DNA of 64,000 bases from Ostreococcus lucimarinus. Its lineage: Eukaryota. The notes under the pieces were generated by a model, which ran no database searches, had not been told where the DNA came from, and saw only the letters and a list, made by a program, of their open reading frames with translations. Shown here in pieces: positions 94-62,355 of the stretch (its first letter is position 1; every line of letters begins with the position of its first letter). The position numbers and the translations under genes are program-made. The stretch lies in assembly GCA_000092065.1 (NCBI GenBank), contig CP000582.1. One strand, written 5' to 3'.

Positions 94-1206
94 ATGGGCG
101 TCGCCTGTGGACCCTCACGAGGTGAAGGAGACCACGGACCTCAAGAGCAAGCACGTCAAGTTCCAAGTTACGTATCACTGAGTGAAGTTTTGCGACTCGT
201 CCGTGAGGGCCATGTCAACGGAGACGATATCATGCGTCTTGCATCTCTTTACTTGAGCATGAAGTCCAAACGCGCTTCCGCAAAAGAAATCCTCTCCGCG
301 CTATTTAGTCACGCACACGGCGGTGAGATTTTGCGAGTCATCAGCGCCGTTGTTGTTGGGGCCAAATCTTTACAAAGTGAAGGCTTTGTAAATTCTCAAG
401 GCGGAAATACACTCCTTATCTCCCATGCACAGTCCAAAACAAACCATGTCAATCAGAGGGCGAAGCAAATAACACAAAAGGTAGTCTTTGATCAGCAGCG
501 GCTATCGAAGAGGATCGCGTCGAAGCTTAGATCGCGACATCCGGGTATGCACGTTGATCCGGCCTCGTTCGAACTCTTCGGCGAGGCGATCCGTCAACGC
601 ATTCGACATATCTCTAAAGATCTCATGAGGATCGCCACGATACGTCATATGTCGAGCATCATAGCGAAAAACTCAAAAGCAGAGAGAGTAACTCCTAGGG
701 GTAAGATTCGTGACATCAACCTTACACTCATGCAGAGTACATCAGCTAGAAGAGAACAAGAGCGACAGAAATTGCTACAGCTTGGTGATCAGTCCAACAA
801 ACGGAAAAGACAAAGTTCTGATGACGAATTTGATGAAGAACTACGCACTAGGGCGGAGAAAGCACGCACAGAAGAGGAGGAAAGGAGGCTCGCAGATGCT
901 GCGAATGAAGCAACAAGAAGCGCACTAGGCGATGCGAAGTATCTCAAGTGGTTCGCTCACGGTAAAAATGTGCAAAAAACTACCGAACTTAATCCTCGGG
1001 TATCAAGTGCAGTTACTTCAAAACAAACAACGCGCGCTGAAGCGACAGAAAAGGCTTCAAAGACTGGTTTGGAAACACACGACAGCAAAATTTCATTTGT
1101 TGACGTCATATGCGTGCTCAAGTCGGAAAAGGCTTTTAACGGGATTCTTCCTCGTCTCTTTCACACGAAAAATTTGCTGCTGTTCAACGTGGGGAATTCG
1201 AACTAG
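94..1206 (+). CDS. TAF4-like protein (TFIID subunit 4 C-terminal conserved region); upstream exons may precede the window.
   Basis: 370-aa ORF. The C-terminal block EANEATRSALGDAKYLKWF followed by KISFVDVICVLKSEKA resembles the TAF4 conserved C-terminal domain. An acidic, Lys/Arg-rich linker lies upstream. The frame is open upstream to position 25. Confidence 0.4.
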   Translation: MGVACGPSRGEGDHGPQEQARQVPSYVSLSEVLRLVREGHVNGDDIMRLASLYLSMKSKRASAKEILSALFSHAHGGEILRVISAVVVGAKSLQSEGFVNSQGGNTLLISHAQSKTNHVNQRAKQITQKVVFDQQRLSKRIASKLRSRHPGMHVDPASFELFGEAIRQRIRHISKDLMRIATIRHMSSIIAKNSKAERVTPRGKIRDINLTLMQSTSARREQERQKLLQLGDQSNKRKRQSSDDEFDEELRTRAEKARTEEEERRLADAANEATRSALGDAKYLKWFAHGKNVQKTTELNPRVSSAVTSKQTTRAEATEKASKTGLETHDSKISFVDVICVLKSEKAFNGILPRLFHTKNLLLFNVGNSN

Positions 1207-12497: not shown

Positions 12498-13010
12498 CTA
12501 CAAAGAAGTAAGCGCTCTTCGACGACCTACTTCGTCTTCTAGCATGGCGTTTGCTGACTTAAGGAGACCAGAATAGTCATGCGAAGCTATCCGTAGCAGT
12601 TCAAGAAGGCAGTGCTTTATGTCGACAATTCGGACGTCTGAAGTAGTCTCAAATTTCATGCACCTGTGAAACGAACAGTATGCCGAGTCGAATTGTAACT
12701 GTCGACGAACTTGCTGATACCCACTCGAACTTGCCTCAGTTTCGAAGTTTGGAGAAGCTGTCTTTGCTCTCAGCAGAAGTTTTCGAAAGTTTGAGCTACC
12801 AGGGCGCGCGTCGCATTGACACTTCAACTCGGTGATTCTTGAGCGGGCGCGGTTGATTTCATGAGTCGCACCCTCGACATCTCGCTTGAGACTAGACATC
12901 TCTTTTTCATAAGCACGGCAAGCGGCAACGAGTTCTGTTAGCTTTTCTACGTTCACGGCCTTTTTCACTGAACAAAACTTTAAGAGTATCTTTAGTTTGA
13001 TAAACTGCAC
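12498..13010 (-). CDS. Hypothetical coiled-coil protein.
   Basis: 170-aa ORF with heptad-like charged segments and no recognisable motif. Confidence 0.15.
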   Translation of the reverse strand: MQFIKLKILLKFCSVKKAVNVEKLTELVAACRAYEKEMSSLKRDVEGATHEINRARSRITELKCQCDARPGSSNFRKLLLRAKTASPNFETEASSSGYQQVRRQLQFDSAYCSFHRCMKFETTSDVRIVDIKHCLLELLRIASHDYSGLLKSANAMLEDEVGRRRALTSL

Positions 13011-15765: not shown

Positions 15766-17559
15766 ATGACTTGTTACACGAAAATCAACGCGGCTGTCCC
15801 TATCAAAGGTAAGACGCGTACGCGTACGCGTTCTCGATTAATCGGTACATGGTCACATTGTTCCATGCATTCGTTGCACATTGGGCTGTGTATGGCTTGC
15901 AGTCGTGCTACCTGCCAGAAATCAGCCTTGCCGTCGTCCGATGCAAGTTTTACTAGGTTGAAGCTACTTTCTACGAGAAAAGAATACAACGCGCGACGAT
16001 CGATCACATGCAGCTCTTTAAATATCGACTTCGCAAACTCCCTTCTGCCCTTTAGTAGCCCTGATATGTTTCTCGGAGTGTTGGACTCAGCGTCTGTATA
16101 CGAAACAGTGCTTCTGACGGTAGAGTTCAAAACGCTTGCGCTTGGATTCGTTGCTGGCATCATGACCACAAGTTTCATCGTTTATCTCACTCAGCGGGGT
16201 AGGCGCCGAAAATCTAAAACCCTCACTCGGCAAGCTTTAGCAGAGTTGAGTGCCCTTGAAGAGCTGGAAACCCTGGACCTCCTTGGCGACATCCCGGCGT
16301 GGTTGACTTTTAGCGATGTTGAGAGATCAGGTTGGCTCAATAAAGTTGTTAAAGCCGCTTGGCCTTATTTGGATGCGGCCACTTCATCAGTCATCGTGAA
16401 GGCCTTAGATCCAATATTGCGAAATACACGGCCAAGTTTCTTGACATCGTTACAGTTTGAGAGATTCAGTTTTGGTAGTGTTCCAGCTATCATTGAAGGT
16501 GTCAAGGTATATGAATCGAGTGAAGAAGGTGCTTTGGAAATCGATTTAAAAGTGTTTTGGGCAGGAGATCCTGACGTTGTTCTGAAAATACGAGCAGCAC
16601 AAGATGCGTTAGCAGTTCCAGTTTCTTTAACGGAATTTGAGTGCACGTTCACTCTTCGACTGATTTTTGCACCACTCATTGGAATCTTCCCATGCTTCGG
16701 GGCGCTCACAATTTCATTGACTGAAAATCCGGATGTAAATTTCGATCTTCGCGTTGTAGGAGGAGACATAACGCTTCTGCCTGGTCTTGCGCAGCCACTT
16801 CAAACATACATCCAGGCCTTAATTGCATCTTTTCTCGTCTGGCCTCGTTGCATCACTGTGCCGATTCCAGGTACGGGTTACTCACTTCCAGATATGGAAC
16901 GCGCAAACGCCGGTCTACTTCATGTTGAAGTACATTCTCACGATGAAACATTGGCTTCAGAAGCTGAAATTGCTATCCAACTCCGTTGGCCCGGTGCATT
17001 GAGCACAGATATGTCTCAAGAAGTGCGCGTACACGCTTTGCCCGGTGGCAGGTTTTTGAACTCTCGAGAAATCACACTTCCCGTGGAGGACATGACTAGA
17101 CAGATATTGAGTGTGCGTTGGTATTCAAGCCCTAAAGACCAAGGCGAGGCGAGGCAATTGACAGGTGAAACTAGTCTATTATTGGATGACATAGTTAGTC
17201 AGATCGATTTTGAGTCTTCGGGAGAGTTAAAAGACTGGGGTCCCGTCACCATAGCTGTAGAACTTGAATCCACAAATAGTGAAAATGCGAGCAGAGATGC
17301 CGTAAAACGAAAAAGTTCGATGTACGGCAGGATGATCAAGGTAGGTTCTGACCTTTTATCGCGGGGCAAGCGTTTTTCGAAAAAATCTACTACGAAGGTG
17401 TCTAGAGGACCCGAAGATAACAATGTGGATAGATGGTTACATGTCCGAGCGCGTATAGTTCAACTGACTGTTAGATACCAGTCCATTGATTCTATGCGTG
17501 CACCTCTCTCATCTTCACAGGGTTTCCGCTTGCGTGAAAACGAACAGAACGAGGATTGA
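15766..17559 (+). CDS. SMP-domain lipid-transfer protein (extended-synaptotagmin/tricalbin-like) with an N-terminal TM helix.
   Basis: TM segment TLALGFVAGIMTTSFIVYL, then WLNKVVKAAWPYLDAATSSVIVKALDPILRNTRPSFLTSLQFERFSFGSVPAIIEGVKVY, the canonical start of an SMP domain. The true start Met is uncertain. Confidence 0.6.
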   Translation: MTCYTKINAAVPIKGKTRTRTRSRLIGTWSHCSMHSLHIGLCMACSRATCQKSALPSSDASFTRLKLLSTRKEYNARRSITCSSLNIDFANSLLPFSSPDMFLGVLDSASVYETVLLTVEFKTLALGFVAGIMTTSFIVYLTQRGRRRKSKTLTRQALAELSALEELETLDLLGDIPAWLTFSDVERSGWLNKVVKAAWPYLDAATSSVIVKALDPILRNTRPSFLTSLQFERFSFGSVPAIIEGVKVYESSEEGALEIDLKVFWAGDPDVVLKIRAAQDALAVPVSLTEFECTFTLRLIFAPLIGIFPCFGALTISLTENPDVNFDLRVVGGDITLLPGLAQPLQTYIQALIASFLVWPRCITVPIPGTGYSLPDMERANAGLLHVEVHSHDETLASEAEIAIQLRWPGALSTDMSQEVRVHALPGGRFLNSREITLPVEDMTRQILSVRWYSSPKDQGEARQLTGETSLLLDDIVSQIDFESSGELKDWGPVTIAVELESTNSENASRDAVKRKSSMYGRMIKVGSDLLSRGKRFSKKSTTKVSRGPEDNNVDRWLHVRARIVQLTVRYQSIDSMRAPLSSSQGFRLRENEQNED

Positions 17560-24619: not shown

Positions 24620-25515
24620 GGAAAAATTTATATATCGCACCTTTAGAGAGTACCTACACACATGACGAGTCATGAACCGTGGATATATACGTATTTTACA
24701 CCGTTTAGTTCTAAAAGTTTGATTCTACAACATCTACGAGAGGTAGTTCCTAATGCTAATTTGCTCGCCTTTGCTTGCCTTGCGTTTGTGTTCATCGACC
24801 ATCTTCTCGTGCCAGCCCCTCTTCCTGCTCAACGCCGTATCACCCGCCGCGCCTCTCATAGGAATCGCAACCAGGTTCGACATACCGAGCACACCATCGC
24901 CGTCCATTTTGCTATTCTTGGACATGTTTTGAGACATCTCTCTGTGTGTCTTCAAGTTGTGCATGAAACGTTGAAGTTTGTTGAGCGTGTCTGTGATGTG
25001 TGCGGCTTCATCAGGCTCGAACGTGAATTCTGGATCGAGTGCGAGTTGTGTCAACTCGGCGGTCATTTGTGCCCAGCGTAACTTTACACTCACGTTGTCG
25101 AAAGCTGCTCCAAGGCTTCTCCGATGAGTTGGTAGAGAGGCTTCAACATTATCTGGAATCGCTGGAGTCACGTGTCTCCTGGAATCGCTGGAGTCACGTG
25201 TCTCCTGGAGCCCGGACGATACGTGAAGAGCATCACCGAACGGATCGTCGAAGGGATCATCGTCGCACTCGTCTTCCATCCGACCATCGCCCGCACGCGC
25301 GACGACAACTGGCGCGACAGGCGTGGAAAAGACACGAGGCGAACGTGTTTTTCACCAAGGTAGGAATACTCTATTGTAGATGGCACTAAACGGTGTAAAA
25401 TACGTATATATCCACGGTTCATGACTCGTCATGTGTGTAGGTACTCTCTAAAGGTGCGATATATAAATTTTTCCTTCTGAGGTACTCTCTAAAGGTGCGA
25501 TATATAAATTTTTCC
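24620..25515. mobile_element. Mutator-like (MULE-type) non-autonomous DNA transposon of about 0.9 kb. It has ~88-bp terminal inverted repeats and a 9-bp target-site duplication TTCTGAGAG (24611..24619 and 25516..25524).
   Basis: The left end GGAAAAATTTATATATCGCACCTTTAGAGAGTACCTACACACATGACGAGTCATGAACCGTGGATATATACGTATTTTACACCGTTTAGT is exactly reverse-complemented at 25383..25515. Flanking 9-bp direct repeats are present. Internally there is a 26-bp tandem duplication (25155..25206) and a 41-bp tandem duplication of the right terminus (25441..25522). Confidence 0.65.
24734..25279 (-). CDS. Hypothetical ORF carried inside the MULE-like element.
   Basis: 181-aa ORF lying wholly between the TIRs, acidic at the N-terminus, with no motif I recognise. 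It may be a captured fragment rather than a functional gene. Confidence 0.2.
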   Translation of the reverse strand: MEDECDDDPFDDPFGDALHVSSGLQETRDSSDSRRHVTPAIPDNVEASLPTHRRSLGAAFDNVSVKLRWAQMTAELTQLALDPEFTFEPDEAAHITDTLNKLQRFMHNLKTHREMSQNMSKNSKMDGDGVLGMSNLVAIPMRGAAGDTALSRKRGWHEKMVDEHKRKASKGEQISIRNYLS

Positions 25516-27016: not shown

Positions 27017-28099
27017 CTAGACGGGCTTCTGAACTAGACCAGCGGCACTATCCCACGCCGACGCGCTCATCACGTCCGCGATCGCGTTTGATTCGCGCTC
27101 AATAACTTTATCAACGATTCCGTATTCAATCGCGTCCTTAGCCGTCATGTACAACGGGCGTTGCATATCCTATTCGCAAGAAATTTTAATAATGAACGAA
27201 AATCATTGTAGCGAAAAGCTCACCTTATCTAACTTGGCCACTGAATGACCTGTTGTCTGACTGAGAATATCCAACAGAGACTTCTTCTGAGCAAGTGTTT
27301 CGCGCCACTTGATGTTTAGTTCGGTAGCCTGTCGCTCTCCAGTCGAAGGTACGCGAGGTTGGTGCAACATTGCTGTCGCATGAGGTGTCATGTACCTTTT
27401 ACCTTTATCACCTGCAGATAGAAGCATGCATGCTTGCCCTATTGCAACACCGGTACCAACTGTATAAATCTATATCTATGTGAGAAAAGTCGTTAAAAAC
27501 GAAATTAAGACCTCACCTCATTGCCAATATACTTCATCGTGTCGAAAATTGCGGTGGCTTCGGTTTCAAAACCGACAACCTCGCCATCGGCGCGGGTACA
27601 ACCAGTCGAGTTGATGTAGATGTAGCACGGCTTCTTTTGATCGGTGTATTGAAGATACAGGAGTTCTGACACAATGAGCTCAGTAACAGCAGGAACAAGC
27701 TATCAATAATGCGTAGTTAGTTTCCCAATTCAAGTTATTGAACATGTATCTCACCGGCATGCCTATGTAGACGATTCGGCTGTCCAGAAGCAAGGAGGGG
27801 AGGTCAGGTGGCGGTGTTTTTGGTTTGTGTTCACTATACGAGGTCCCCGGATTCGCGCTAGCCGGTGAGTTTGAAGCTTGTGGACTTGCATAAGCATTAC
27901 TGATGGCCGCCCCCGGTCTTCCGTGCGCGTGGATGGTCCGAGGGCGACGTCGCGACGTCGTCGTTACACGTTCAAGGTGCTGGGGAGCTGTTTTCGCTCC
28001 CACTCGCCTGTTGGCGGCAGATCGCAAGTGGTCTCCGTGCGCGACGCGGGCAGCACGCGCAGAGCAAGTGACAGATGAAACCACGTAAGTGGATTTCAT
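27017..28099 (-). CDS. clpP: ATP-dependent Clp protease proteolytic subunit ClpP with a long organellar presequence. 4 exons at 27755..28099, 27517..27699, 27224..27469 and 27017..27169.
   Basis: PPDLPSLLLDSRIVYIGMP; LVPAVTELIVSELLYLQYTDQKKPCYIYINSTG; GDKGKRYMTPHATAMLHQP; EAIEYGIVDKVI. A ~95-aa Arg/Ala/Ser-rich N-terminal extension precedes the catalytic domain. GTGAGA, GTGAGG and GTGAGC donors with consistent phase. Confidence 0.8.
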
Positions 28100-28352
28100 G
28101 CTTTACGCCTGTTCAATAGTGCTGGGCGCGCGTTTCGAGAGTATCGAACCAAGCAAAGAGAAAGAAACCTATGATAAGCCGATATTATTTTTTAGGTGTT
28201 TGTTCTTAGTGAAATGTATATATATCATATGATATCATGTCATGTCCCGTCGGATATATAAAGTACTAGGTAGAAAGCATATATTTCTGTAAGTACTTAC
28301 TCGCTCTGCGCAGGGCGCTCCAAAACGCCTGTAACGCGTTTACTCGCCGCAC

Positions 28353-28928
28353 ATGACGCGACCCTCGAACGACTATTGCGAACAGATTGTGCACGTCGAT
28401 GCCTTCGCGCAGCAAGTCAACGTGTGCCGTAGCGCGAATGTGGAACTAGTATCTTTAGGCTTACGACGGCAGGTTAGGGATACGACATACACACGCTCGG
28501 TATCAGGTGTTCGCAGCTCGCAGCTTATGTTGACGAAATCTTTCGTACCCGCGAAAGGCACGACGTTTGTCTATCAACGGGAAAATGTGATAAAAACTCC
28601 ATCTCTGACTGCTGGTCGATCGTCCAGCGACCATCCGATAATAGAATCACACACACTGAAGAGAACACCTGATGCTTATATCGAACAAATTATAGCTGTC
28701 ATCGATGCTCTGGTTCCTGGAGCACGTGAAAACACTCGAATCCCGTTATTACAACTTGGTGCCGATTCACTTACGCTCGCGGAAGCAAGTGTAAAAATTA
28801 ATACACTTACGGGGGTGTCGCTGTCGGTTTTTGACATGCTTGATTTCAAGACACTGGCAGGCATACTTGAGAACACGTTTTCAAGTTCGTGTCAATTAGG
28901 AAGTGTGACCTGCATTACCAGTGTGTAA
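28353..28928 (+). CDS. Stand-alone phosphopantetheine-binding carrier protein (ACP/PCP-like) with a ~110-aa N-terminal extension.
   Basis: DAYIEQIIAVIDALVPG...IPLLQLGADSLTLAEASVKINTLTGVSLSVFDMLDFKTLAGILE has the four-helix carrier-protein layout, with the LGxDSL motif carrying the Ser that is phosphopantetheinylated. Confidence 0.45.
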   Translation: MTRPSNDYCEQIVHVDAFAQQVNVCRSANVELVSLGLRRQVRDTTYTRSVSGVRSSQLMLTKSFVPAKGTTFVYQRENVIKTPSLTAGRSSSDHPIIESHTLKRTPDAYIEQIIAVIDALVPGARENTRIPLLQLGADSLTLAEASVKINTLTGVSLSVFDMLDFKTLAGILENTFSSSCQLGSVTCITSV

Positions 28929-30898
28929 ATTATCTAATCTAAGAGAGTTTTTTCCCAATCATCCCTGTAAGGATATCTAAACTATTACCATCTGGATGGA
29001 GTTCGAACGTGTTTCCCTGACGATCGACTGTTTACGCAGTAAGATTTGTGAGTTCTAGGTTGTTGTCACATTTCACCTGCAAACAGAAAACCTGCATCTG
29101 TGAGACCAGTGACAGTGACCGAAATCATCGCGCCCGAAGAATCTGAGTTAAAAATCGAAAGTTGTGCTTCATCGTGTAGCCAGTGAGCCGTGTATTCTGC
29201 CTACAAATACATAAGCAAGAGTCCTGGACATTCTACATTTCATACCCGTATGGCGCAGAAACCGTTTCTTTGCAATTTGTCATGTAGACTTTCAAAGTGA
29301 GCTAAACCGGGGTAAGCAAAGATATTTCCTCGTTTGGAGCGGACTGACCCAGAATTTTAGGAACGAGCGCCTCTCTCTTCAATTTCTACACAGTATGAGT
29401 AAACTCCCAAAGCATACGTTAGCAACGCACTACGCTGAACTTCTCAGTGGATGGTTCTTGAACACCCCCACGCTTTGTGCCATCAAAAGTCGAGAAGAAT
29501 AGAGCGTTCTCATTAATCAGGCTGTTAAGGCACACACTAGGCGACTAGCGACCGATAAGATATTCTTCTTTTTGTCGAAATAAAAGAAATAAAACTTACA
29601 GAGTTGTCAAGATTGAGGCCGATACCTATCACTACGCTGAAGGAATTTTCACGATAAATGGCTTTGCATAGAACACCACCAATCTACGTTCGAAGCTTAA
29701 AGTATATAGAAGAAGGTCTAAGTGTCCCTATACCTTGTTCAACTTATAATAAATATCATTTGGCCACTTGATCCGTATACCCAGCGACTTGTACTGTGAG
29801 CAACCAGCAGCAGTACAAGACTCCTCAATCGCCTAAGCGCAGCAGTGATCAAACAAGAAGGAATGTTCTGAGTGCACACAAACCTTAACGACCGCTAATG
29901 TCGATATGTACTGTAGAAGAGGGATTTCGGCAGCAGCCCTGTCGTTCCAAGTCACACACATAAATACTTTGATTTATTTGCACGCACAAACTAGTTTCAC
30001 ATGTAAAGGAAAACGTCAAGCAACCGTACGGTGACTGCCAGACATTTGTGCTGAATATGCGTGAGGATTCGGTACGATGAACGAACGGCGTCTAAATACC
30101 CTCGACCTTGGCCCGCAGTCTGCTCATCACTGACGCATACAGTCCCAGACGGGAAAGACTCAAACTCCCTGATTATCAAGTGAGAAAAAGCACAAAACTG
30201 TAAATTGAGACGCGCACTTGAGCAAAAAGTCGCTCGTGCTACCCAACTTTCCCGATCGCAGCAAAATAGCCCCAAGGTGTCGAGTTTGAAGCTTGGAAAA
30301 GAATTCTAACTCGTTGAAAGTGCCTGCTAGATTTGATGGGCTCTCGAGCACACGTACTCGACTACAAAAGCATGCGTTAACGAATATGTGATGTTTCGAA
30401 CACGCATATTTCAATACCTCGCGGCGATTGGCTTTTGACCAAGCCGCTCTTTCACCTTTGGGAGCATCTAAACGAAGTTCAACGATAAAGCGCGTGGCTT
30501 CGAAGAAATTGTACCGAAGGATTCCGAACGCACAGCTCCACCGCATGCATTGCAGATGTTCCATCAACCCTCATGTACTTCAGCGGGGTTCACACGCCAA
30601 TTCGCGTCGAATTGCGAACGCGTGACTCGGTCAGGTCGCGCGCCGGCGACACACAACTCAGCGGTGCGCAACTCGGCTAAATGTCGGTTTATACCCACTG
30701 AATTATGAGGATATAATATCATATACACACATACCGATGCCTATCTGTACATTGCATGATTTTTTCCATCCTCACACAAGACGCGGGCGTTCTCACGACG
30801 CACGCGGACACGAGCACTTGTTGTCACACGTCGCGCGGCAGCGGCTCCATCGATACGATTGCGCCACTACAGGCCTGTCGGGATCCGGTACAGCTGCC

Positions 30899-32967
30899 AT
30901 GAGCTCGCACGATTCTAGATACTTCTCCAGTCATAAGAAAGGTAACTGTGGGCAGGCTTCACTGAGAAGTGAAAAGTATTGAAGTGACAGTTCCCCCTCA
31001 GGCGAAATAGCAGAGTGGCGCCAAGACTTGAAAAGAAATGACAGAGATCTTTTAAAGACGACGGTAAAGAGAAGTACGATCATTTAATCTCTAACTTGAA
31101 CACCTATCAACTAAATATCGCAGTTATTGCTGCTATGACGGTCGGGAAGGACGTATGTTCACTGTTTCCAGACGTCATCAATTGCATGCAGACTGAAGAC
31201 ATAGAGTTGAAAAAGCTCATTTACTTATACTCGATCAATTACGCACGGTCTAACCCTGATCTTGCTATACTCGCGGTGAATACATTCGTAAAGGTAAAAA
31301 GACAAGTCGACATACTTTTCTAGCCTAAAATCTTTGATTATAGGACAGTCAAGATCCCAACCCGCTCATACGGGCTCTTGCTGTGCGGACGATGGGCTGT
31401 ATACGGGTTGACAGGATCGTAGAATATTTATGCGATCCATTGCATCTAGCATTACGGGTACGCACGTACTCGTTTCACGTATTTTCTGAAGTTGACGTCT
31501 TTCAGGACTCTGATCCATACGTCCGAAAAACTGCGGCCATATGCGTAGCGAAGTTATATAGCATAAATAGAGAGCTCGTTATCGACAGGTTTGTCTGCGA
31601 AAGACCGTCTGCTGTGATGACTTACGATGTTTGGACGTCTTAGAGGATTTCTACAGCAGTTAAACGGCTTGCTGCTTGATGACAACCCCATGGTAATGGC
31701 AAACTCCATTGCGGCACTTGTCGAAATTCAGAAAGGGAGCTGTGCGCAAATAATCGACTCAAGTCTGCTTTCTAGAGTTTTTACTTCACTCGAAGCGTGC
31801 ACTGAGTAAGATTACATGTCTATTCGTTTCAAATCACTTTGTTGATTCTTCGTTGTAGGTGGGGGAAAGTGACTATCCTTGACTGTTTGGCGGCGTATGA
31901 GAGTACAAGTGCTACGGAGGCCGAACACATACTTGAAAGTATCTTGCCAAAGCTTCAGCATGCCAACTATGCCGTAGTACTCGCATGCATACGAGTGATT
32001 CTCAGTAAGTTGCATCAAGTTCAGGTCTGTGTTGTTCTCAATCTTGGATTCCGATTGTTGACTTTGTTTTATAGCACTTGCGAGAGTCTTTACTACAACG
32101 AATTGTTCCTCCACTCATCACAATGTTGAACGCTGAACCTGAAATTCAGTATGTCGCGTTGACGAGTATAAGTGAAATCATGGATGCCTTTGTATTTCCG
32201 TTTTTGCACAGTTACAAGGTAAAATGTTCGATTAATGGTCAGTCTAGGAACTGATGTGTGTTTAGGCATTTTTCTGCAAATACAATGACCCGTCGTATGT
32301 GAAACATGAAAAGCTGAATATTCTCGTCAAAATTACGAATGAGAACAACGTTGGCGATATTTTACTCGAGCTCAAAGAATATTCTGGTGAAGTGGACATC
32401 GAGTTCGCACGAAAAGCCATTCGCTCGATCGGTATATGTGCTCTATCTGTGCCTGAATATTCACAGGGGTGCGTTAGTGCACTTATGTGCATTATTGACA
32501 CGAAAGTTAACTATGCCGTTCAAGAGGCGCTAGTTGTTTTAAAGGACATATTCCGGTGTTACCCAGATCGGTATGAGAGTGTGATATCGCGTTTATGTCA
32601 ATCACTCGTGAGTTTGGATGAACCAGAAGCAAAGAAGTCTTTCATTTGGATTCTTGGCGAGTACGCTGATCGCATCGAAAATGTTATCGATTTATTGCGA
32701 ACGTTTATTGATGGTGTCGATGATGAACCTGTCGTTGTACAGCTCCAATTACTTACATCGACAGTTAAGCTATTTCTTAAACGTCCGAGCGAAGAGTCAA
32801 AATCCCTCGTTCAGCAGATGTTGATGTTTGCTACCCATGAAAGTGAGCACCCTGATCTTCGGGATCGGGCATATGTATACTGGCGGCTTTTAAGCCATGG
32901 AGGCGATAAAGTGGCGAGTGTTGTCACCTCACACATGCCCGCCCCACAATGCAACCCTTCCTCGTAG
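30899..32967 (+). CDS. AP-complex beta-adaptin (AP-1/AP-2 beta large subunit), at least 10 exons. First exons at 30899..30941, 31002..31073 and 31124..31293. Last exon 32266..32967.
   Basis: [15 protein letters not shown]..., [87 protein letters not shown] and [16 protein letters not shown] are hallmark beta-adaptin trunk motifs. Middle exon boundaries are approximate. Confidence 0.75.
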
Positions 32968-33043
32968 TTGGCCTTTGTCAATACAAGCATGAAACTACTG
33001 TAGATCACATGATGGGGTATTCGCACACGCAGGTACTTTCGCA

Positions 33044-34498
33044 TCAAGTGACCGATATCAATAACTTGTTTTTTTTTCCAGCGGCAAGCAGTAGTAGCCT
33101 ACCGTCGACAATGTCTGCCATGCTCACGGTAGCTTCATCTGACAAGACTTTGATGTTGTTAAGTCGCAAACCTCCACCTTGAATCAACCGCTTGGTGGCG
33201 CCTTTGCTTGGCTGTAATCCTACGTCAACAGCCAGTTGGACTAGACTGATGCCTAACACCTGTTGCATAGGGAGTGTTGCGCTCGGTACGATACCTTCGA
33301 GAGCAGTCAACGCGGTCACATCTAAATCAGTGTCCGCCCCTGGTTTCAGCACAGAGGTAGCAGCCTGCGCTTCTTCCAACCCTTGCACTCCGTGAACAAA
33401 TCGCGTTACTTCCTCAGCGAGACGCCTTTGGACAGTGTTTACTATGTAGCTAGGCTGACTCATGTGACGTTCATACTCTAAAACTTCAGCCAACGGTACA
33501 AACGTCAGCATCTTCAGGAGTCGAATGACGTCAGCGTCATCTACGTTCAGGAAATATTGATAGAACTTGTAAGGTGACAATCTCGAAGTAGAAAGCCAAA
33601 TCGCGCCTTGCTCAGATTTTCCAAATTTTGTGCCATCTGACTTTAGTAGAAGTGGAAAGGTAAGCCCAGATACGTCAGCAGAAGGTTCAAGTCTGCGTAT
33701 AAGGTCGGTCCCAGCGGTGATATTCCCCCACTGGTCACTCCCACCGACTTGCACAGACACTTGTTGTGATCGGAGAAGATGAACGAAATCATAACCTTGC
33801 AAAAGCTGATATGCAAACTCGGTAAAGCTTATACCACTTTCACTTGAAAGTCGAGACTTGACACTATCTTTTGCAAGCATGGTCCCCAGGCGTGAATACT
33901 TCCCAACGTCCCGCAAGAAGTCCAAGAAACTCATGTCAGCATACCAATCGACGTTATTGACGACTATTAGCGACGTATCAGTGGAATTATCTGTCAATAT
34001 CTTTTGGATCGTGTTGGAAATAGCCTCAGCGTTCACAGCTATTGTAGTTTCGTCCAGTATAGGTCGCTCCGAAGACTTTCCAGAAGGATCGCCCACTCTA
34101 CCTGTCGCCCCGCCAATCAGAGCGACTGGTGTGTGTCCGTACTTCTCAAACCAGGATAGTACGACTATACCTAGCAAATTGCCAATGTGCAAGGAATCCG
34201 CAGTGGGGTCAAAACCACAGTAAACTCGTAAAGAACTCCCCTCCAACACTGACTCATTCGTGCACGCCTCGACGAGGCCACGTGCGTGGAGTTCGCCATA
34301 AACACTCGATTCGTACCTTTCATCGTCCGCAAACGCCCTCAATCGTGAATTCGGCAGCGAAGTAGCTCCGTGACCGCGGTCATTCGCTTGAGTCGTAAGT
34401 CTTCGTTGAGCAGAGCAAGTGCGGTGCGTCGAGAACGCTGAGCGAGCAAATACCGCGCGAAGCATGCCCGAGCCTCTATAAATATTCGAAAGAGCCAT
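33044..34498 (-). CDS. Tyrosyl-tRNA synthetase, bacterial-type (mitochondrial), with presequence.
   Basis: Class-I HIGH region YCGFDPTADSLHIGNLLG, KMSKS-equivalent KFGKSEQG, and a C-terminal S4-like domain. The probable start is the internal Met at 34498 (MALSNIYRGSGMLRAVFARSAFSTHR, an amphipathic Arg-rich presequence). The ORF extends upstream to 34675. Confidence 0.85.
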   Translation of the reverse strand: MALSNIYRGSGMLRAVFARSAFSTHRTCSAQRRLTTQANDRGHGATSLPNSRLRAFADDERYESSVYGELHARGLVEACTNESVLEGSSLRVYCGFDPTADSLHIGNLLGIVVLSWFEKYGHTPVALIGGATGRVGDPSGKSSERPILDETTIAVNAEAISNTIQKILTDNSTDTSLIVVNNVDWYADMSFLDFLRDVGKYSRLGTMLAKDSVKSRLSSESGISFTEFAYQLLQGYDFVHLLRSQQVSVQVGGSDQWGNITAGTDLIRRLEPSADVSGLTFPLLLKSDGTKFGKSEQGAIWLSTSRLSPYKFYQYFLNVDDADVIRLLKMLTFVPLAEVLEYERHMSQPSYIVNTVQRRLAEEVTRFVHGVQGLEEAQAATSVLKPGADTDLDVTALTALEGIVPSATLPMQQVLGISLVQLAVDVGLQPSKGATKRLIQGGGLRLNNIKVLSDEATVSMADIVDGRLLLLAAGKKNKLLISVT

Positions 34499-34810
34499 CG
34501 TCACCGATTTGTTGCAGTTGGGTGACAAACCAGCGTCGTCAGACCTCGCTCCGGACGAGGTTTGGCACTGAGCCACTTGATTCGTCACATAAATCGCAAG
34601 ATGTGGTAATTCTGGTGGTATAGACCACTGTAATACGGAATCCTCCACTCTAACATGCTGGTATATAGATACCACATTTACACTATATATACCGAAATAG
34701 CGAAATTGGAGGTCGCCCCTGTATACATGTCATGTGATAAAAGCCAAGTCTGAGCTCTCGTCGCGAGAGAAGTCGCCGCAACCACTCAGCACACCGAGAA
34801 AGTGGACAGA
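34499..34810. promoter_or_regulatory. Shared bidirectional promoter of about 310 bp between the divergent mitochondrial TyrRS (-) and mitochondrial PheRS (+) genes.
   Basis: The two inferred start codons (34498 on the minus strand, 34811 on the plus strand) face away from each other with no other ORF between them. Confidence 0.4.
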
Positions 34811-36123
34811 ATGCGTAGTATGTTAGCAAGACACTGTATTGTACGGGTAGCTGGCCATTTTTACGGACATAAGTCAACTCTAGGAACGTCGCAACGATCG
34901 TCCACGCGAGTTGTTCGAGGGCCGGGGGGGGCTGCGGCTGTTCGAAGAGAAGGTAAGTCGTACTGAGATTTTGTGAATCGAGTGCCAAGTTGATATGTAT
35001 TGCAGATGTGTTGATTGCATGTCCAGACAATAACGTGACGGAGTATATATTTGAGAAAATCGGAGTTGACTTGCACCGCCGTCCAGAGCACCCACTCGGT
35101 ATCTTGAAGAATGCTATCATGGACTATTTTGATGAAACGTATGGGAAAAACGCGTTTCGAATGTTCGATGATTTGCATCCTATTGTGTCGTCGTACGAAA
35201 ACTTCGATTCAGTTTTGGTACCGGAAGATCACGTATCAAGGTCAAAAAATGACACATACTATGTTACAGCAGATACTGTTTTGCGCTGCCACACGTCGGC
35301 CCATCAACTCAGTCTGTTGAAGCAGGGTGAGAAGCGCTTCCTGGTGACCGGTGATGTCTACAGACGAGATTCGATCGACGCGACGCATTTCCCTGTCTTT
35401 CATCAGATGGAAGGAGTTCGAGTGTTCACTCAAGATGAAATCGCTGGCAGCGAACTCACGGGCGAGGAACTTGCAAGTCAGGAATTAAAAAATATGCTAG
35501 AGGGTCTTGCGCGTCATCTATTTGGAGAAGTTGAAATGCGTTGGGTAGATGCTTACTTTCCATTCACTAATCCCTCGTACGAACTTGAAATTTACTTCAA
35601 TGGTGAGTGGTTGGAAGTTTTGGGGTGCGGTGTGATGGAAACTAAAATTCTGAACGAAGCATCCCTAGTAAATGAGCGCGCGTGGGCATTTGGTTTAGGA
35701 CTTGAACGTCTTGCTATGGTTTTATTCGACATCCCTGACATCCGACTGTTCTGGACTGATGATGCACGGTTCTTGAAACAGTTCAAGCCCGGGATGTTCC
35801 GAAGTGGAGGCGTCGGGATGCAAAAATTCAAAAGTTATTCAAAATACCCCCCTTGCTACAAAGACGTTTCTTTCTGGTTACCCGACGAATCGACATTCAC
35901 TGAAAACAACCTGTGTGAAATCGTGCGTGCAACTGCCGGCGATATAGTTGAGGAAGTGAAACTGATAGATGAGTTCCGCAATCCCAAAACAGACAAGGTT
36001 TCGAACTGTTTTAGAATTTCTTATCGCTCCATGGATCGATCCCTTACCGATGATGAAATTAACGAATTGCAGGAAACCGTGCGCGAATCTCTCGTTGAAA
36101 AACTTGGTGTGACTCTTCGATAG
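34811..36123 (+). CDS. Phenylalanyl-tRNA synthetase, mitochondrial monomeric type (FARS2-like). 2 exons at 34811..34952 and 35006..36123.
   Basis: FPFTNPSYELEIYFNGEWLEVLGCGVMETKILNE, GLGLERLAMVLFDIPDIRLFW and HTSAHQ are diagnostic. Exon 1 encodes MRSMLARHCIVRVAGHFYGHKSTLGTSQRSSTRVVRGPGGAAAVRRE, a mitochondrial-type presequence. GTAAGT donor and phase 1 are consistent. Confidence 0.8.
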
Positions 36124-56609: not shown

Positions 56610-57539
56610 TCACGCCTTCTTGGTGTGTTTTTTCCTGAGCTTCGCGGTGGCGATGTGCTTGGAGTAATAGAAATGTCCAAACAGCGCCAGCAGGCTAATC
56701 ATGTAAAAAAGGAGTATCTTTGACAAGAACTTCGGGTATTCTGAAAAATATGCACAGTACACGGCCTGTAACAGATTGCATAGAAATTGAAGCATCTGCA
56801 TCTGCGTCAAATGTCGACCCCACCAAAGGTACTTAACACGTTTGTCGTTGTTTTTCCCGATCAGAGCCGATAGCAGATAGTACGTGTACATGCACACGTG
56901 TACCCAAGAGTTCAGTGCTGCACTGAAGTAAGCATCCCCACCCGGAGCTCGACGTGCGATCATCCACCATATAAACGAAATAGTGCTGTGATGGTAGACA
57001 TGCAAAAAGCTTACTTGGCGTAAGTTTCTCTTCAGTAGCATTATGAATGTATCAACGAACTCATATATCTTGCTCACGTAAAAGAGGTAGATGTAAAACG
57101 CAAGCTGCTTTTCATTCACGTTGAACTTATTTCCCCATAGCTTATATCCACTTTTGTATGCTTCGACGATACAACCGATGCACATATACAAACTTAGTAA
57201 TATGAGGAATGCATTGTGGCAAATCACCGATGCTTTTAACCATGTGGGATCCCAAATCTTTGTGTTTGTTGTTGCGGATAAGACGCGGTACGATACAACG
57301 ACCGTGACCAAGTACACGAGAAGGCTGGTGATCAGAGGAGTTGGTGAGGTTATGGCGGGTAAATGTGAGGTGGTGGGGCTCAGCGGGTCGAGCTCCCAGC
57401 CTAACCAGTCAGCGCAGGAGAAAACTACTTTCGAAATGATTGAGTCCCACGCCTTCCAGTAGTGTCGCAACATCGGGTAGGTAGTTTGCTCGCTCCAATC
57501 GTCGATACGTGAAGATGAGGCGCAGGAAGAGATTGCCAC
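56610..57539 (-). CDS. ELO-family fatty-acid elongase (GNS1/SUR4).
   Basis: Histidine box LHVYHHSTISFIWW and YYLLSA. Multiple predicted TM segments. Lys-rich C-terminus KLRKKHTKKA (ER retention-like). Confidence 0.8.
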   Translation of the reverse strand: MAISSCASSSRIDDWSEQTTYPMLRHYWKAWDSIISKVVFSCADWLGWELDPLSPTTSHLPAITSPTPLITSLLVYLVTVVVSYRVLSATTNTKIWDPTWLKASVICHNAFLILLSLYMCIGCIVEAYKSGYKLWGNKFNVNEKQLAFYIYLFYVSKIYEFVDTFIMLLKRNLRQVSFLHVYHHSTISFIWWMIARRAPGGDAYFSAALNSWVHVCMYTYYLLSALIGKNNDKRVKYLWWGRHLTQMQMLQFLCNLLQAVYCAYFSEYPKFLSKILLFYMISLLALFGHFYYSKHIATAKLRKKHTKKA

Positions 57540-60154: not shown

Positions 60155-62355
60155 ATGTACGCAAGCTCACCACATATCCTCACAAAAAGCACACGAACGT
60201 TCTCAGTTCAAGGTGCCGCCGCCTCGAGCCGCGCTCAAAGGACCTTCGGTGCTGGACGCTCTGTTGACCTCTCTACCCGCAAGCTGACACCCGGCATTGA
60301 TGTGTTGAAATCTCGACGTTACTCCGCGCGCGTCGCGCGGAAGCAGTCGTTGTGTGTTCGCGCCGAAAAGGTGGTCGGTATCGATCTCGGAACTACAAAC
60401 TCAGCGGTAAGTAAGCTTTTATGCTGAACGAGCCCTGCGTTGTGTGAATGTTGAAGAGAACGTTCTACATTTTTCGCTAAATTCAAGATACTTACCGACA
60501 TATATTTTTTGTTCCACAGGTTGCCGCAATGGAAGGTGGCTCTCCCACTATAGTTACAAATGCTGAAGGCGGACGTACGACACCTTCAGTTGTTGCGTAT
60601 ACGAAGACTGGTGACCGCTTGGTCGGACAAATCGCGAAGCGACAGGGGGTCGTGAATCCTGAAAACACCTTCTTTTCTGTCAAACGTTTCATCGGTCGCA
60701 AAATGGACGAAGTAAACAGTGAGTCTAAAGAGATTCCATACTCTGTTGTCAACAGTGCCGGTAAGGTGAAAATTGAGTGCCCGGCACTTGGAAAGCAGTT
60801 TGCAGCCGAAGAAATCTCCGCTCAAGTGCTTCGCAAGTTGTGCGATGATGCGGCTAGTTTTCTTGGCGATGCAGTAACAAAAGCTGTGGTTACTGTGCCG
60901 GCGTACTTCAATGATAGTCAACGACAGGCTACTAAGGATGCTGGCCAGATTGCGGGTATTGAAGTTTTGCGAATTATCAATGAACCGACAGCAGCCTCAC
61001 TTGCTTACGGTTTTGATCGTAAGTCGAACGAGACTATTTTGATTTTCGATTTAGGAGGTGGTACGTTCGATGTATCTGTTCTTGAAGTCGGAGATGGTGT
61101 CTTCGAGGTTCTGTCAACTTCCGGCGATACTCACCTCGGCGGTGATGATTTCGACAAGCGTATCGTGGAGTGGTTGGCAGGCGACTTTGAAAAATCTGAG
61201 GGCATCGATCTCATGAGTGATAAACAAGCGTTACAAAGACTGACCGAGGCTGCTGAGAAGGCGAAAATGGAACTGTCAACCACTTCGTCAACGTCCATTT
61301 CGCTGCCTTTCATTACTGCCACGGCAGATGGACCAAAACACATCGACACTTCTCTCACCAGACCAAAATTCGAGCAACTATGCGATGATCTGATTAATCG
61401 TTGCAAAGTTCCTGTTCAGCAAGCGCTGAAAGACGCGAAGTTAAGTCTAGCGGAAGTTGACGAAGTGATTCTTGTTGGAGGCTCAACACGCATACCTGCT
61501 ATCCGCGAATTGGTCAAGAGTCTCACTAAGAAGGAACCGAACATGAGCGTAAACCCCGATGAAGTCGTAGCACTTGGCGCCGCTGTGCAAGCTGGGGTAC
61601 TCGCTGGTGAAGTCTCGGACATCGTTCTACTTGATGTGACTCCGTTATCCCTTGGCCTTGAAACGTTAGGAGGGGTGATGACAAAACTTATACCTCGAAA
61701 CACAACACTTCCCACATCGAAGTCAGAAGTGTTTTCCACGGCCGCTGACGGACAGACCAGCGTCGAAATCAATGTTTTACAAGGCGAGCGCGAATTCGTC
61801 AAAGATAACAAGAGTCTTGGAAACTTTAGACTGGACGGCATACCCTCTGCTCCTCGTGGTGTACCGCAGATTGAGGTCAAGTTCGACATAGATGCTAACG
61901 GTATCCTTTCGGTCGAAGCTTGCGACAAGGGCACGGGCAAGAAACAGGACATTAAAATCACTGGAGCTTCTACGCTTTCGTCTGATGAAGTCGATCGCAT
62001 GGTCGCCGATGCGGAAAAATTTGCAAGCGAAGATGCAGCAAAGCGCGAACAAGTCGAGGTGCGAAACAGTGCTGATTCTATGGTTTACCAAACCGAAAAA
62101 CAAGTGCAAGAACTCGATGAAAAAATACCGCAAGATGTCAAAGAAAAAGTTCTTGAAAAAGTTGCTGAGCTCAAGCAAGCCATAGCGAGTGATGACTTAG
62201 AGAAGATGAAAACCGCACAAGAAGATTTGCAACAGCAAGTTATGGCGATGGGCCAGGCGATGTATCAAGGGACTGGTTCTGAAACCGGACAAGAAGCTTC
62301 GACTGATCCTTCTCAAGATGATGTCATAGATGCAGAGTTTTCCAGCGATAAATAA
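60155..62355 (+). CDS. Plastid stromal HSP70 (DnaK-type, cpHsc70-like) precursor, 2 exons at 60155..60406 and 60520..62355 (695 aa).
   Basis: [15 protein letters not shown] | [62 protein letters not shown] ... [11 protein letters not shown]. It is near-collinear with plant chloroplast Hsc70, including the DVIDA(D/E)F C-terminus. The N-terminal 80 aa are Ser/Thr/Arg-rich with no hydrophobic signal peptide. GTAAGT donor and CCACAG acceptor. Confidence 0.85.

What the first reader, a model, noticed from the sequence alone, without database searches (positions are those of the whole stretch)
28353..28928. Orphan phosphopantetheine carrier protein (PCP/ACP-like) ORF with a long N-terminal extension
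The C-terminal 80 aa follow the carrier-protein fold consensus closely, with LGADSL as the 4'-phosphopantetheine attachment site. It resembles NRPS/PKS peptidyl or aryl carrier domains more than the LGLDSLDTVE type of mitochondrial or plastid ACP. The 110-aa N-terminal region has no recognisable domain. It sits alone between ClpP and a 2-kb ORF-poor stretch, with no adjacent adenylation, KS or AT partner. A free-standing carrier protein of this type in a eukaryotic nuclear genome is unusual. It would need a trans-acting loader.
Basis: partly seen in the sequence, partly recalled or inferred. Interest (0 to 1): 0.55.

Follow-up and report, generated by a model that had tools for sequence, protein, structure and literature searches.

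The report
Fast-evolving stand-alone carrier protein gene
The ORF is a real, intron-less gene in the green picoalga Ostreococcus lucimarinus for a small free-standing phosphopantetheine-type carrier protein; it belongs to a fast-evolving family confined to this algal group, already machine-annotated in O. tauri, so it is a modest curiosity rather than a surprise.

Summary
Observation confirmed. Window 28353-28928 (+) is a 191-aa ORF. Residues 106-180 are a phosphopantetheine carrier domain (PF00550 24.8 bits, cut-off 20.8), with Ser139 in LGADSL at the start of helix 2. The window is O. lucimarinus CCE9901 chromosome 2, in the low-GC candidate mating-type region.

The ORF is not a one-off. It belongs to a family of 151-221-aa proteins found in at least seven low-GC Ostreococcus-like lineages, including O. 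tauri XP_003074970 ("Phosphopantetheine attachment site"). The carrier domain is 34-51% identical between lineages, with Asp138-Ser139-Leu140 invariant. The ~100-aa N-terminal part stays open but is unalignable and modelled at very low confidence.

The "ORF-poor 2 kb" downstream is a 13-exon biotin-protein ligase gene on the minus strand, with stop codons 10 nt apart. This tail-to-tail pair recurs in every lineage with genomic context. No upstream exon is needed, because ClpP starts 253 nt away on the other strand.

The most likely function is a holo-carrier loaded in trans, perhaps serving the alga's trans-AT polyketide synthases. Modification and partner are inferred, not shown. Novelty: new member of a known kind. 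Interest is low to moderate.

The parts
28353..28928 (+). Complete single-exon CDS of the 191-aa stand-alone carrier protein (stop TAA 28926-28928)
   Evidence: ORF list and sequence. Intact with no indel in the sister lineage, dN/dS 0.43. Family alignments A2 and A3.
28353..28667 (+). N-terminal extension, residues 1-105: translated but barely constrained in sequence, modelled at very low confidence (read here as probably disordered), with an acidic first 20 residues
   Evidence: No Pfam hit. pLDDT below 40. 7-28% identity between lineages, yet the frame stays open in all of them. dN/dS 0.46.
28668..28892 (+). Carrier (PP-binding) domain, residues 106-180, a four-helix bundle
   Evidence: PF00550. 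AF2 pLDDT 77-89. Foldseek top 50 hits are all ACP/PCP. Domain identity 34-51% between lineages. dN/dS 0.27.
28767..28769 (+). Codon of Ser139, the predicted 4'-phosphopantetheine attachment site in LGADSL
   Evidence: Sequence. D138, S139 and L140 are invariant in 11 family sequences. The residue sits at the N-terminus of helix 2 in the model.
28100..28352 (.). 253-nt divergent intergenic region shared with ClpP. It contains a TATA-like tatataaag at 28255-28263, and 28353 is the first ATG after that element
   Evidence: Read directly from the sequence. 18% diverged with 6 indels against the sister lineage, versus 7.8% and no indel in the ORF. Promoter function is inferred only.
28939..30574 (-). 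Convergent neighbour: biotin-protein ligase gene, 13 exons, 12 introns of 45-56 nt, about 347 aa. Its stop codon lies 10 nt from the carrier's stop codon
   Evidence: Collinear tblastx to the O. tauri PF03099 gene. Spliced metatranscript contigs L020 and L021 are essentially identical to the window (99.5-100% per block). GT..AG junctions. Model. TIGR00121 birA_ligase 110.6 bits against cut-off 83.1. Intron 29201-29245 is inferred, not seen spliced.
27017..28099 (-). Divergent upstream neighbour: nuclear ClpP gene, at least 4 exons, ATG at 28099
   Evidence: PF00574 hits on three exon translations. ORF list.

Best explanation
Window 28353-28928 is a genuine protein-coding gene without introns. 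It lies in the low-GC candidate mating-type region of Ostreococcus lucimarinus chromosome 2. It encodes a small free-standing carrier protein of the phosphopantetheine-binding superfamily. An N-terminal stretch of about 105 aa, poorly conserved and probably disordered, precedes a 75-aa four-helix carrier domain. That domain is closest in sequence to the ACP domains of type I polyketide synthases.

The protein belongs to a fast-evolving family restricted to Ostreococcus and close relatives (Mamiellales). In every lineage the gene lies tail-to-tail with the biotin-protein ligase gene.

Inferred mechanism:
- An Sfp-type phosphopantetheinyl transferase converts Ser139 to the holo form.
- The pantetheine thiol then carries an acyl group that is loaded and used by enzymes encoded elsewhere.
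- The most plausible clients are the alga's multimodular trans-AT type I polyketide synthases, which already depend on trans-acting components.

Shown here: gene reality, fold, conserved attachment motif, family distribution and neighbourhood. Inferred: the modification, the cargo and the partner.
For: Domain and fold.

Real gene:
- The ORF has no indels and dN/dS is 0.43 (p 0.014), falling to 0.27 in the domain core, against a 92%-identical sister lineage. The upstream intergenic DNA is 18% diverged with 6 indels.
- Related ORFs of 151-221 aa occur in at least seven lineages with the same architecture.
- The O. tauri relative is annotated as XP_003074970.

Likely functional attachment site: P122, P131, L135, G136, D138, S139, L140, L142, E144, D161, K166 and T167 are invariant, although the domain is only 34-51% identical between lineages.

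Stand-alone status: the ClpP ATG is 253 nt upstream on the opposite strand and the ligase stop codon is 10 nt downstream.

PKS-like character: five of the six significant non-family hits are proteins with PKS-type ACP domains. These are a KS/KR/DH protein with 8 ACPs, a SAT protein with 2 ACPs, an aminotransferase/condensation hybrid with 3 ACPs, and two tandem-ACP proteins.

Possible clients: O. lucimarinus has 3 type I PKSs with 22 KS domains, and almost all multimodular algal PKSs lack an integrated AT (PMC4661987).

Transcription: metatranscript contigs essentially identical to the window cover 28580-28928. A family member lies on an MMETSP transcript contig.
Against: - The window protein's own Pfam score is only 4 bits above the cut-off.
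- The transcript contigs are unstranded and carry spliced ligase exons. They could therefore be long ligase 3' UTRs rather than sense mRNA.
- There is no proteomic or phosphopantetheinylation evidence.
- No loader or client is encoded in the 64-kb window.
- The domain evolves unusually fast: 36% identity where the neighbouring TyrRS is 76% identical. This is atypical for a metabolic ACP.
- The PDB profile search puts a FAS-type ACP marginally ahead of a PKS ACP.
- Whether the family tracks PKS presence across species could not be tested. Bathycoccus and Ostreococcus RCC809 are reported to lack type I PKS.
Confidence: 0.55

Rival explanations
1. The carrier-fold protein works as an adaptor or regulatory subunit rather than as an acyl shuttle. 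This would resemble the way mitochondrial ACP acts as a structural partner of LYR proteins in complex I. The fast-evolving N-terminal tail would mediate lineage- or mating-type-specific interactions.
For: Very rapid sequence evolution of both parts. Location in a candidate mating-type region (PMC8557840). No biosynthetic partner nearby. Complex I ACP subunits appear among the structural matches.
Against: The Asp-Ser-Leu attachment motif and its flanking Gly and Leu residues are invariant across all lineages. This is what a retained pantetheine arm predicts. Even adaptor ACPs are normally acylated holo-proteins. No LYR-type partner has been identified.
Confidence: 0.15
2. The carrier protein is functionally tied to its invariant neighbour, the biotin-protein ligase. 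It could be a dedicated carrier for a biotin-precursor acyl chain such as pimeloyl. Alternatively, the two genes could regulate each other through overlapping convergent transcripts.
For: The tail-to-tail pair, with stops 3-65 nt apart, is present in every lineage with genomic context, while the outer flanks differ. ClpP or arogenate dehydrogenase lies upstream; adaptin, MCM or E2F lies beyond the ligase. Spliced ligase transcripts run at least 350 nt into the carrier ORF. In bacteria, the pimeloyl moiety of biotin is assembled on ACP (general knowledge).
Against: Gene adjacency is weak functional evidence in eukaryotes. In a very compact genome, genes with overlapping 3' ends are hard to separate by rearrangement, so the pair may persist passively. 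The ligase attaches finished biotin to carboxylases and has no known ACP substrate. No dedicated biotin-pathway ACP is known.
Confidence: 0.1
3. It is a divergent organelle-targeted ACP paralogue, plastid or mitochondrial, and the N-terminal 100 aa is a transit peptide.
For: The N-terminal part is conserved in length but not in sequence, as transit peptides are. In the window protein, residues 26-70 are rich in Arg, Ser and Thr. The best PDB sequence hit is an apicoplast ACP.
Against: The first 20-25 residues are acidic in most family members (window D7, E10, D16; the L030 lineage has six acidic residues). The N-part pI ranges from 5.3 to 9.9. No NCBIfam ACP equivalog matches. Helix 2 lacks the acidic FAS-type recognition pattern. 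No targeting predictor was available, so this rival is not formally excluded.
Confidence: 0.07
4. It is not a translated gene. The ORF is a chance open frame inside the 3' UTR of the biotin-protein ligase mRNA, or an exon of a larger unrecognised gene.
For: It is absent from the GenBank protein set of O. lucimarinus as far as the cluster look-up shows. The only transcript contigs seen are contiguous with spliced ligase exons. 19% of random-substitution replicates also keep the ORF open at this divergence.
Against: A PP-binding domain with an invariant motif is kept open in at least seven lineages at 34-51% identity. dN/dS is below 1. There are no indels in the ORF, against six in the adjacent intergenic DNA. 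Flanking genes on both sides leave no room for further exons.
Confidence: 0.03

Closest known systems
Ostreococcus tauri XP_003074970.1 / CAL52241 / Q01EL2, 'Phosphopantetheine attachment site' (174 aa, chromosome 2)
   Same: Same family and architecture, with a divergent N-part followed by a C-terminal carrier domain. Same chromosome type and low-GC region. Same convergent biotin-protein ligase neighbour.
   Different: Only 41% identical in the domain and 17% in the N-part. The upstream neighbour is arogenate dehydrogenase rather than ClpP. Its name comes from an automatic domain label and no function has been tested. No paper in the held library cites its accessions.
ACP domains of type I (modular, trans-AT) polyketide synthases
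   Same: The nearest non-family sequence relatives carry PKS-type ACP domains. The motif pattern is shared: xPhxxLGxDSLT on helix 2, and F-D-x-x-x-x-(P/K)-T after helix 3 (alignment to 6h0j). The four-helix fold is shared.
   Different: It is a separate 191-aa polypeptide, not a domain within a megasynthase. It has a 105-aa unstructured N-terminal tail. No PKS gene is in the window.
Free-standing type II carrier proteins of bacterial secondary metabolism (e.g. BlmI, AntF, A. baumannii stand-alone PCP)
   Same: A discrete carrier of about 75-80 aa loaded in trans. Structural matches have target TM 0.74-0.79 (4neo, 6sm4, 4hkg).
   Different: Those are encoded inside biosynthetic gene clusters next to their partners. 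This one is a eukaryotic nuclear gene among housekeeping genes and has an N-terminal extension.
FAS-type ACPs (bacterial AcpP, plastid/apicoplast and mitochondrial ACP)
   Same: The fold and the LGADSL motif. The best PDB sequence hit is P. falciparum ACP 2fq0/3gzl at E 0.001. The domain pI of 4.2 is acidic.
   Different: No NCBIfam ACP model hit. Helix 2 is not the acidic DSLDxVELVMxxEExF recognition helix. The N-terminus is not transit-peptide-like. It evolves far faster than housekeeping ACPs do.

Membership tests
PP-binding superfamily (Pfam PF00550; acyl/peptidyl carrier proteins) | Profile score above the curated gathering threshold | tested here: met
   24.8 bits against 20.8 for the window protein. 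8 of 8 family members match, best E 5.4e-11.
PP-binding superfamily (Pfam PF00550; acyl/peptidyl carrier proteins) | Conserved serine in a G-x-(D/H)-S-(L/I) motif at the N-terminus of helix 2 | tested here: met
   G136-A-D-S139-L140. G, D, S and L are invariant in 11 sequences. Helix 2 starts at residue 139 in the model.
PP-binding superfamily (Pfam PF00550; acyl/peptidyl carrier proteins) | Four-helix-bundle carrier fold | tested here: met
   AF2 pLDDT 77-89 for residues 110-180. Top 50 Foldseek PDB hits are all ACP/PCP, with rmsd about 2-3 A over roughly 75 columns for stand-alone carrier chains. This is a predicted, not a solved, structure.
PP-binding superfamily (Pfam PF00550; acyl/peptidyl carrier proteins) | Covalent 4'-phosphopantetheine on the serine | not testable with these tools
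   Needs mass spectrometry or an in vitro PPTase assay.
FAS-type (type II) ACP, including plastid and mitochondrial ACP | Match to curated ACP equivalog models | tested here: not met
   No NCBIfam family at E up to 10.
FAS-type (type II) ACP, including plastid and mitochondrial ACP | Strongly acidic recognition helix 2 (DSLDxVELVMxxEExF) | tested here: not met
   The sequence reads DSLTLAEASVKINTLTG, and only E144 is conserved.
FAS-type (type II) ACP, including plastid and mitochondrial ACP | Organelle-targeting presequence (for the eukaryotic forms) | tested here: inconclusive
   Acidic residues occur in the first 20 aa and the N-part pI varies from 5.3 to 9.9, which argues against targeting. 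No targeting predictor was available.
ACP domain of type I polyketide synthase | Closest sequence relatives are PKS ACP domains | tested here: met
   Non-family hits P0073, P0075, P0069, P0074 and P0076 carry PF00550 with KS/KR/DH, SAT or condensation domains, or as tandem ACPs. Four of the five also hit PF23297. The PDB ranking is ambiguous.
ACP domain of type I polyketide synthase | Embedded in a multidomain synthase polypeptide | tested here: not met
   A 191-aa ORF bounded by the ClpP start 253 nt upstream and the ligase stop 10 nt downstream. The O. tauri model is also stand-alone.
NRPS peptidyl carrier protein | GG(H/D)S(L/I) core motif and an adjacent adenylation or condensation partner | tested here: not met
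   The motif is GADSL. No A or C domain is found in the window ORFs scanned. No NRPS is reported in O. lucimarinus (PMC4661987).

The most novel reading that the evidence does not exclude
The carrier gene and the biotin-protein ligase gene form a conserved two-gene unit inside the ancient Mamiellales mating-type region. The carrier protein would then have a role linked to that setting. It could be a dedicated acyl carrier feeding biotin or lipid cofactor metabolism. It could be a mating-type-diverged (gametolog) component of polyketide signalling. Or it could be controlled through the overlapping antisense transcript of the ligase. The deep splits within the family (34-51% domain identity where TyrRS is 76% identical) might then reflect MT+ versus MT- alleles rather than species.
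Probability: 0.1. Interest if true: 0.6.

Novelty: new member of a known kind. Interest (0 to 1): 0.3.

Why it matters
If the protein really is a holo-carrier, it is a candidate missing trans-acting component of the very large trans-AT polyketide synthases of prasinophyte picoalgae, whose products are still unknown. It is also an example of a real small gene that appears to have been missed in the O. lucimarinus reference annotation. Its unusually fast evolution and fixed position inside a candidate mating-type region make it a convenient marker for haplotype and gametolog studies. None of this overturns current understanding: stand-alone carrier proteins are a well-known kind, and the O. tauri counterpart already carries the domain label.

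Tried and rejected
1. AlphaFold2 on the shallow four-sequence alignment gave pLDDT 32 and was unusable. It was replaced by the eight-sequence family alignment.
2. phmmer of the single protein against PDB gave only E 0.37.
3. Guessing ligase introns from GT..AG and frame alone was ambiguous. Raw BLAST block edges gave frame errors. This was solved with metatranscript contigs and overlap-aware junctions.
4. I tried to name the species behind the P0067/L015 lineage by searching its eIF3c. The best hits carried no names. It is 55% identical to the O. lucimarinus eIF3c, so it is either another genus or an opposite mating-type haplotype. This remains unresolved.
5. A scan of viral contigs for family members found none.
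6. Supplementary tables of the mating-type paper are not held, so I could not check whether the O. tauri gene is listed as a gametolog.
7. A literature search for the O. tauri accessions found nothing.
8. The Foldseek AFDB50 library was not available.
9. Rfam and tRNA scans of the window found nothing.
10. P0066 (VWA/EGF repeats), a hit in the exhaustive search, was rejected as spurious. L037 (GC 68%, a multidomain megasynthase ORF with KS-, aminotransferase- and condensation-like regions) was rejected as a non-family hit.
11. The internal Met59 start used by a Tara gene call (133 aa) was rejected, because the sister lineage has Thr at that position.

Full report
**What is at the coordinates.**
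Window 28353-28928 on the + strand is an ATG-to-TAA ORF of 191 codons. It is the only open frame of the six over that span. Pfam finds one domain, PF00550 (PP-binding), at residues 128-172. It scores 24.8 bits against a gathering cut-off of 20.8 (E 2.6e-5). No NCBIfam model matches. The N-terminal 105 residues have no Pfam match.

**Which genome this is.**
Exact-sequence look-ups of neighbouring ORFs return Ostreococcus lucimarinus CCE9901 proteins on an 895,087-bp contig. XP_001416191 matches window 94-1206 exactly. XP_001416198 and XP_001416211 fall in the same 90% clusters as the ORFs at 15766-17559 and 60529-62355. I take that contig to be chromosome 2, from general knowledge of this genome. 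The window has 44-50% G+C throughout. Published work puts the genus at about 60% G+C and uses the sharp G+C drop on the big outlier chromosome to delimit a candidate mating-type locus. In that work O. lucimarinus CCE9901 is assigned the MT- type (PMC8557840). The other genes in the window are housekeeping genes: ATP synthase beta, eIF3c, MCM, COG4, Hsp70, TyrRS, RNA polymerase subunits, RFC and an ELO elongase. None of them is a KS, AT, adenylation enzyme or PPTase.

**Evidence that it is a real gene.**
- A syntenic sister lineage from coastal metagenomes (L001-L007) is 92.4% identical to the window over 9 kb.
- In that lineage the ORF is intact, with the same 576 nt and no indel. It has 44 substitutions.
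- Nei-Gojobori dN/dS is 0.43 overall (binomial p 0.014 against neutrality), 0.46 for residues 1-105 and 0.27 for the domain core 106-180.
- The 253-nt intergenic DNA upstream is 18% diverged with six indels. The ORF is 7.8% diverged and the mature ClpP exons 2.4-3.3%. The ORF therefore behaves as coding sequence under weak to moderate constraint.
- At this shallow divergence, 19% of random-substitution replicates also keep the frame open. The deeper comparison below carries more weight.

**A family, not an orphan.**
An exhaustive HMMER search of 1.84 billion representatives found only 14 proteins at E <= 0.001. Seven of them, counting the sister-lineage protein P0002, are small proteins of 174-209 aa with the same layout: an unalignable N-terminal part followed by a C-terminal carrier domain. 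One cluster contains O. tauri XP_003074970.1 (CAL52241, Q01EL2), named "Phosphopantetheine attachment site" and located on O. tauri chromosome 2. Another contains an MMETSP transcript ORF. JGI labels some members "acyl carrier protein".

A metagenome scan added further lineages. All sit on contigs of 43-47% G+C. In the 11-sequence alignment, P122, P131, L135, G136, D138, S139, L140, L142, E144, D161, K166 and T167 are invariant. Domain identity between lineages is only 34-51%, and the N-part only 7-28%. All eight members tested hit PF00550, best E 5.4e-11. The exact window protein and its 90% cluster have no NCBI source, unlike its neighbours. It therefore appears to be missing from the deposited O. 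lucimarinus annotation.

**Fold.**
With the eight-sequence alignment, AlphaFold2 models residues 106-180 at pLDDT 77-89 as four helices: 106-120, 139-153, 159-165 and 168-180. Ser139 sits at the start of helix 2. Residues 1-103 fall below pLDDT 40. The top 50 Foldseek hits in the PDB are all acyl or peptidyl carrier proteins. Target TM is 0.6-0.8 and rmsd about 2-3 A for stand-alone carrier chains. The fold search does not separate ACP from PCP subclasses.

**Which kind of carrier.**
- Beyond the family, five of the six remaining significant hits have PKS-type ACP domains. These are a KS/KR/DH protein with 8 ACPs, a SAT protein with 2 ACPs, two tandem-ACP proteins, and a hybrid with aminotransferase and condensation domains. 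The sixth is a spurious VWA/EGF repeat protein.
- The motif DSLTLAE on helix 2 and the F-D-x-x-x-x-K-T motif after helix 3 resemble modular PKS ACPs. The alignment to 6h0j shows this. They do not resemble the acidic DSLDxVELVM helix of FAS-type ACPs.
- The GG(H/D)S motif of NRPS PCPs is absent.
- A PDB profile search ranks Plasmodium apicoplast ACP (E 0.001) slightly ahead of a PKS ACP (E 0.019), so the assignment is a leaning, not a proof.
- The N-terminus is acidic in most members and its pI ranges from 5.3 to 9.9. This argues against a transit peptide, but no predictor was run.

**The neighbourhood, corrected.**
Upstream, on the minus strand, is ClpP (PF00574 on three exons). Its ATG is at 28099, only 253 nt from the carrier's ATG. 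A TATA-like tatataaag lies at 28255-28263, and 28353 is the first ATG after it (promoter function is inferred). The start Met and a Y-x-E-Q motif close to it align in most family members. No upstream exon is therefore needed.

Downstream, the "2-kb ORF-poor stretch" is a gene on the minus strand. Ten collinear tblastx blocks match the O. tauri gene next to its carrier, which carries PF03099. Two metatranscript contigs (L020, L021), essentially identical to the window (99.5-100% per block), have its introns removed. Junction refinement gives eleven GT..AG introns of 45-56 nt. A twelfth intron (29201-29245) is inferred and is retained in both contigs. The result is a 347-aa protein encoded from 30574 to 28939. 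It scores 110.6 bits on TIGR00121 biotin-[acetyl-CoA-carboxylase] ligase, against a cut-off of 83.1. Its stop codon is 10 nt from the carrier's stop codon.

**The conserved pair.**
In every lineage with genomic context, the carrier ORF is followed within 3-65 nt by this ligase on the opposite strand. That covers O. lucimarinus, its sister lineage, O. tauri, and the P0067/P0078, P0068/P0086, L027, P0071 and L032 lineages. The outer flanks differ. Upstream is ClpP in O. lucimarinus and arogenate dehydrogenase in O. tauri. Beyond the ligase is adaptin in O. lucimarinus and the P0086 lineage, MCM in O. tauri and E2F in the L017 lineage. This could mean functional coupling. It could equally mean that two genes with overlapping 3' ends are hard to separate in a very compact genome. 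I treat it as a lead.

**Transcription.**
L020 and L021 show that 28580-28928 is transcribed in nature. They are unstranded, however, and are contiguous with spliced ligase exons. They prove overlap of the ligase mRNA, or of merged convergent mRNAs, with the carrier ORF. They do not prove a sense carrier transcript. The MMETSP contig L008 similarly joins spliced ligase exons to the whole carrier ORF of that lineage. The carrier ORF itself is uninterrupted in cDNA and genomic copies, so it has no intron.

**Rate of evolution.**
Against the P0086 lineage, the neighbouring TyrRS is 76% identical, while the carrier domain is 36% and the N-part 14% identical. Against the L017 lineage, eIF3c is 55% identical and the carrier domain 42% (L023, the same contig). 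Such speed is unusual for a metabolic ACP. It fits either relaxed selection in a recombination-suppressed region or lineage-specific interaction surfaces. The published finding that MT+ and MT- gametologs predate Ostreococcus speciation means some deep splits in this family may be allelic classes rather than species. I could not test that.

**Mechanism proposed.**
Shown here:
- a conserved, stand-alone, carrier-fold protein;
- an invariant attachment motif;
- no partner gene encoded nearby.

Inferred:
- Ser139 is phosphopantetheinylated by an Sfp-type transferase.
- The holo-protein carries an acyl group for trans-acting enzymes.

The best candidate clients are the three multimodular type I PKSs of O. 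lucimarinus (22 KS domains). Like almost all multimodular algal PKSs, these lack integrated AT domains and rely on trans components (PMC4661987). The same paper reports no type I PKS in Bathycoccus or Ostreococcus RCC809. A phyletic comparison would therefore be a sharp test, but I could not assign species to the metagenomic lineages.

**Verdict.**
The finding is real but ordinary in kind. It is a lineage-restricted, fast-evolving, free-standing PKS-like carrier protein. It is already domain-labelled in O. tauri and apparently unannotated in O. lucimarinus. The points of mild interest are the invariant pairing with biotin-protein ligase, the mating-type-region location, and the long N-terminal tail that is preserved in length but not in sequence.

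Noticed in passing
window 28939-30574 (-): The 'ORF-poor' stretch is a 13-exon biotin-protein ligase gene with 12 introns of only 45-56 nt. Metatranscript contigs show intron retention: 29201-29245 in both, 29833-29883 in L020, and 30468-30514 in L021.
   Followed up: yes
window 28580-28938 and loci L020, L021, L008: Spliced ligase transcripts continue at least 350 nt past the ligase stop codon, antisense through the carrier ORF. The two convergent genes therefore have overlapping transcripts. The strand of the carrier-region signal is unresolved.
   Followed up: partly
locus L004 versus window 27839-35999: One metagenome contig is a mosaic. It is 93.5% identical to the window over 27839-30562, but 99.9% and 99.3% identical over 30983-32947 and 33135-35999. 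L001 is about 92% identical throughout. This is either a recombinant haplotype or an assembly chimera of co-occurring strains.
   Followed up: no
whole window (1-64000): G+C is 44-50% throughout, against about 60% published for the genus, and neighbours match O. lucimarinus CCE9901 proteins exactly. The window therefore lies in the low-GC candidate mating-type (MT-) region of chromosome 2. The gene order is reshuffled relative to O. tauri chromosome 2 and to other lineages.
   Followed up: partly
window 28353-28928: The exact protein and its 90% cluster have no NCBI or UniRef source, although neighbouring genes do. The gene seems to be missing from the deposited O. lucimarinus annotation. A Tara gene call uses internal Met59 (133 aa), but the sister lineage has Thr at that position.
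   Followed up: partly
loci L008 vs L015 and window vs L001: Two family lineages each occur as a pair of about 91-92% identical variants (window/L001 and L008/L015), and window-type (L019) and L015-type (L023-L025) contigs come from JGI metagenomes with similar sample-series ids. This would fit MT- and MT+ haplotypes of two sister species, but it was not tested.
   Followed up: no
window 56610-57539 (-): A GNS1/SUR4 (ELO) fatty-acid elongase ORF (PF01151, E 3e-57) is the only lipid-related gene in the window. It uses CoA rather than ACP substrates, so it is not an obvious partner.
   Followed up: no
window 12498-13010 (-) and 24734-25279 (-): ORFs of 170 and 181 aa with no Pfam match. Not examined further.
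   Followed up: no
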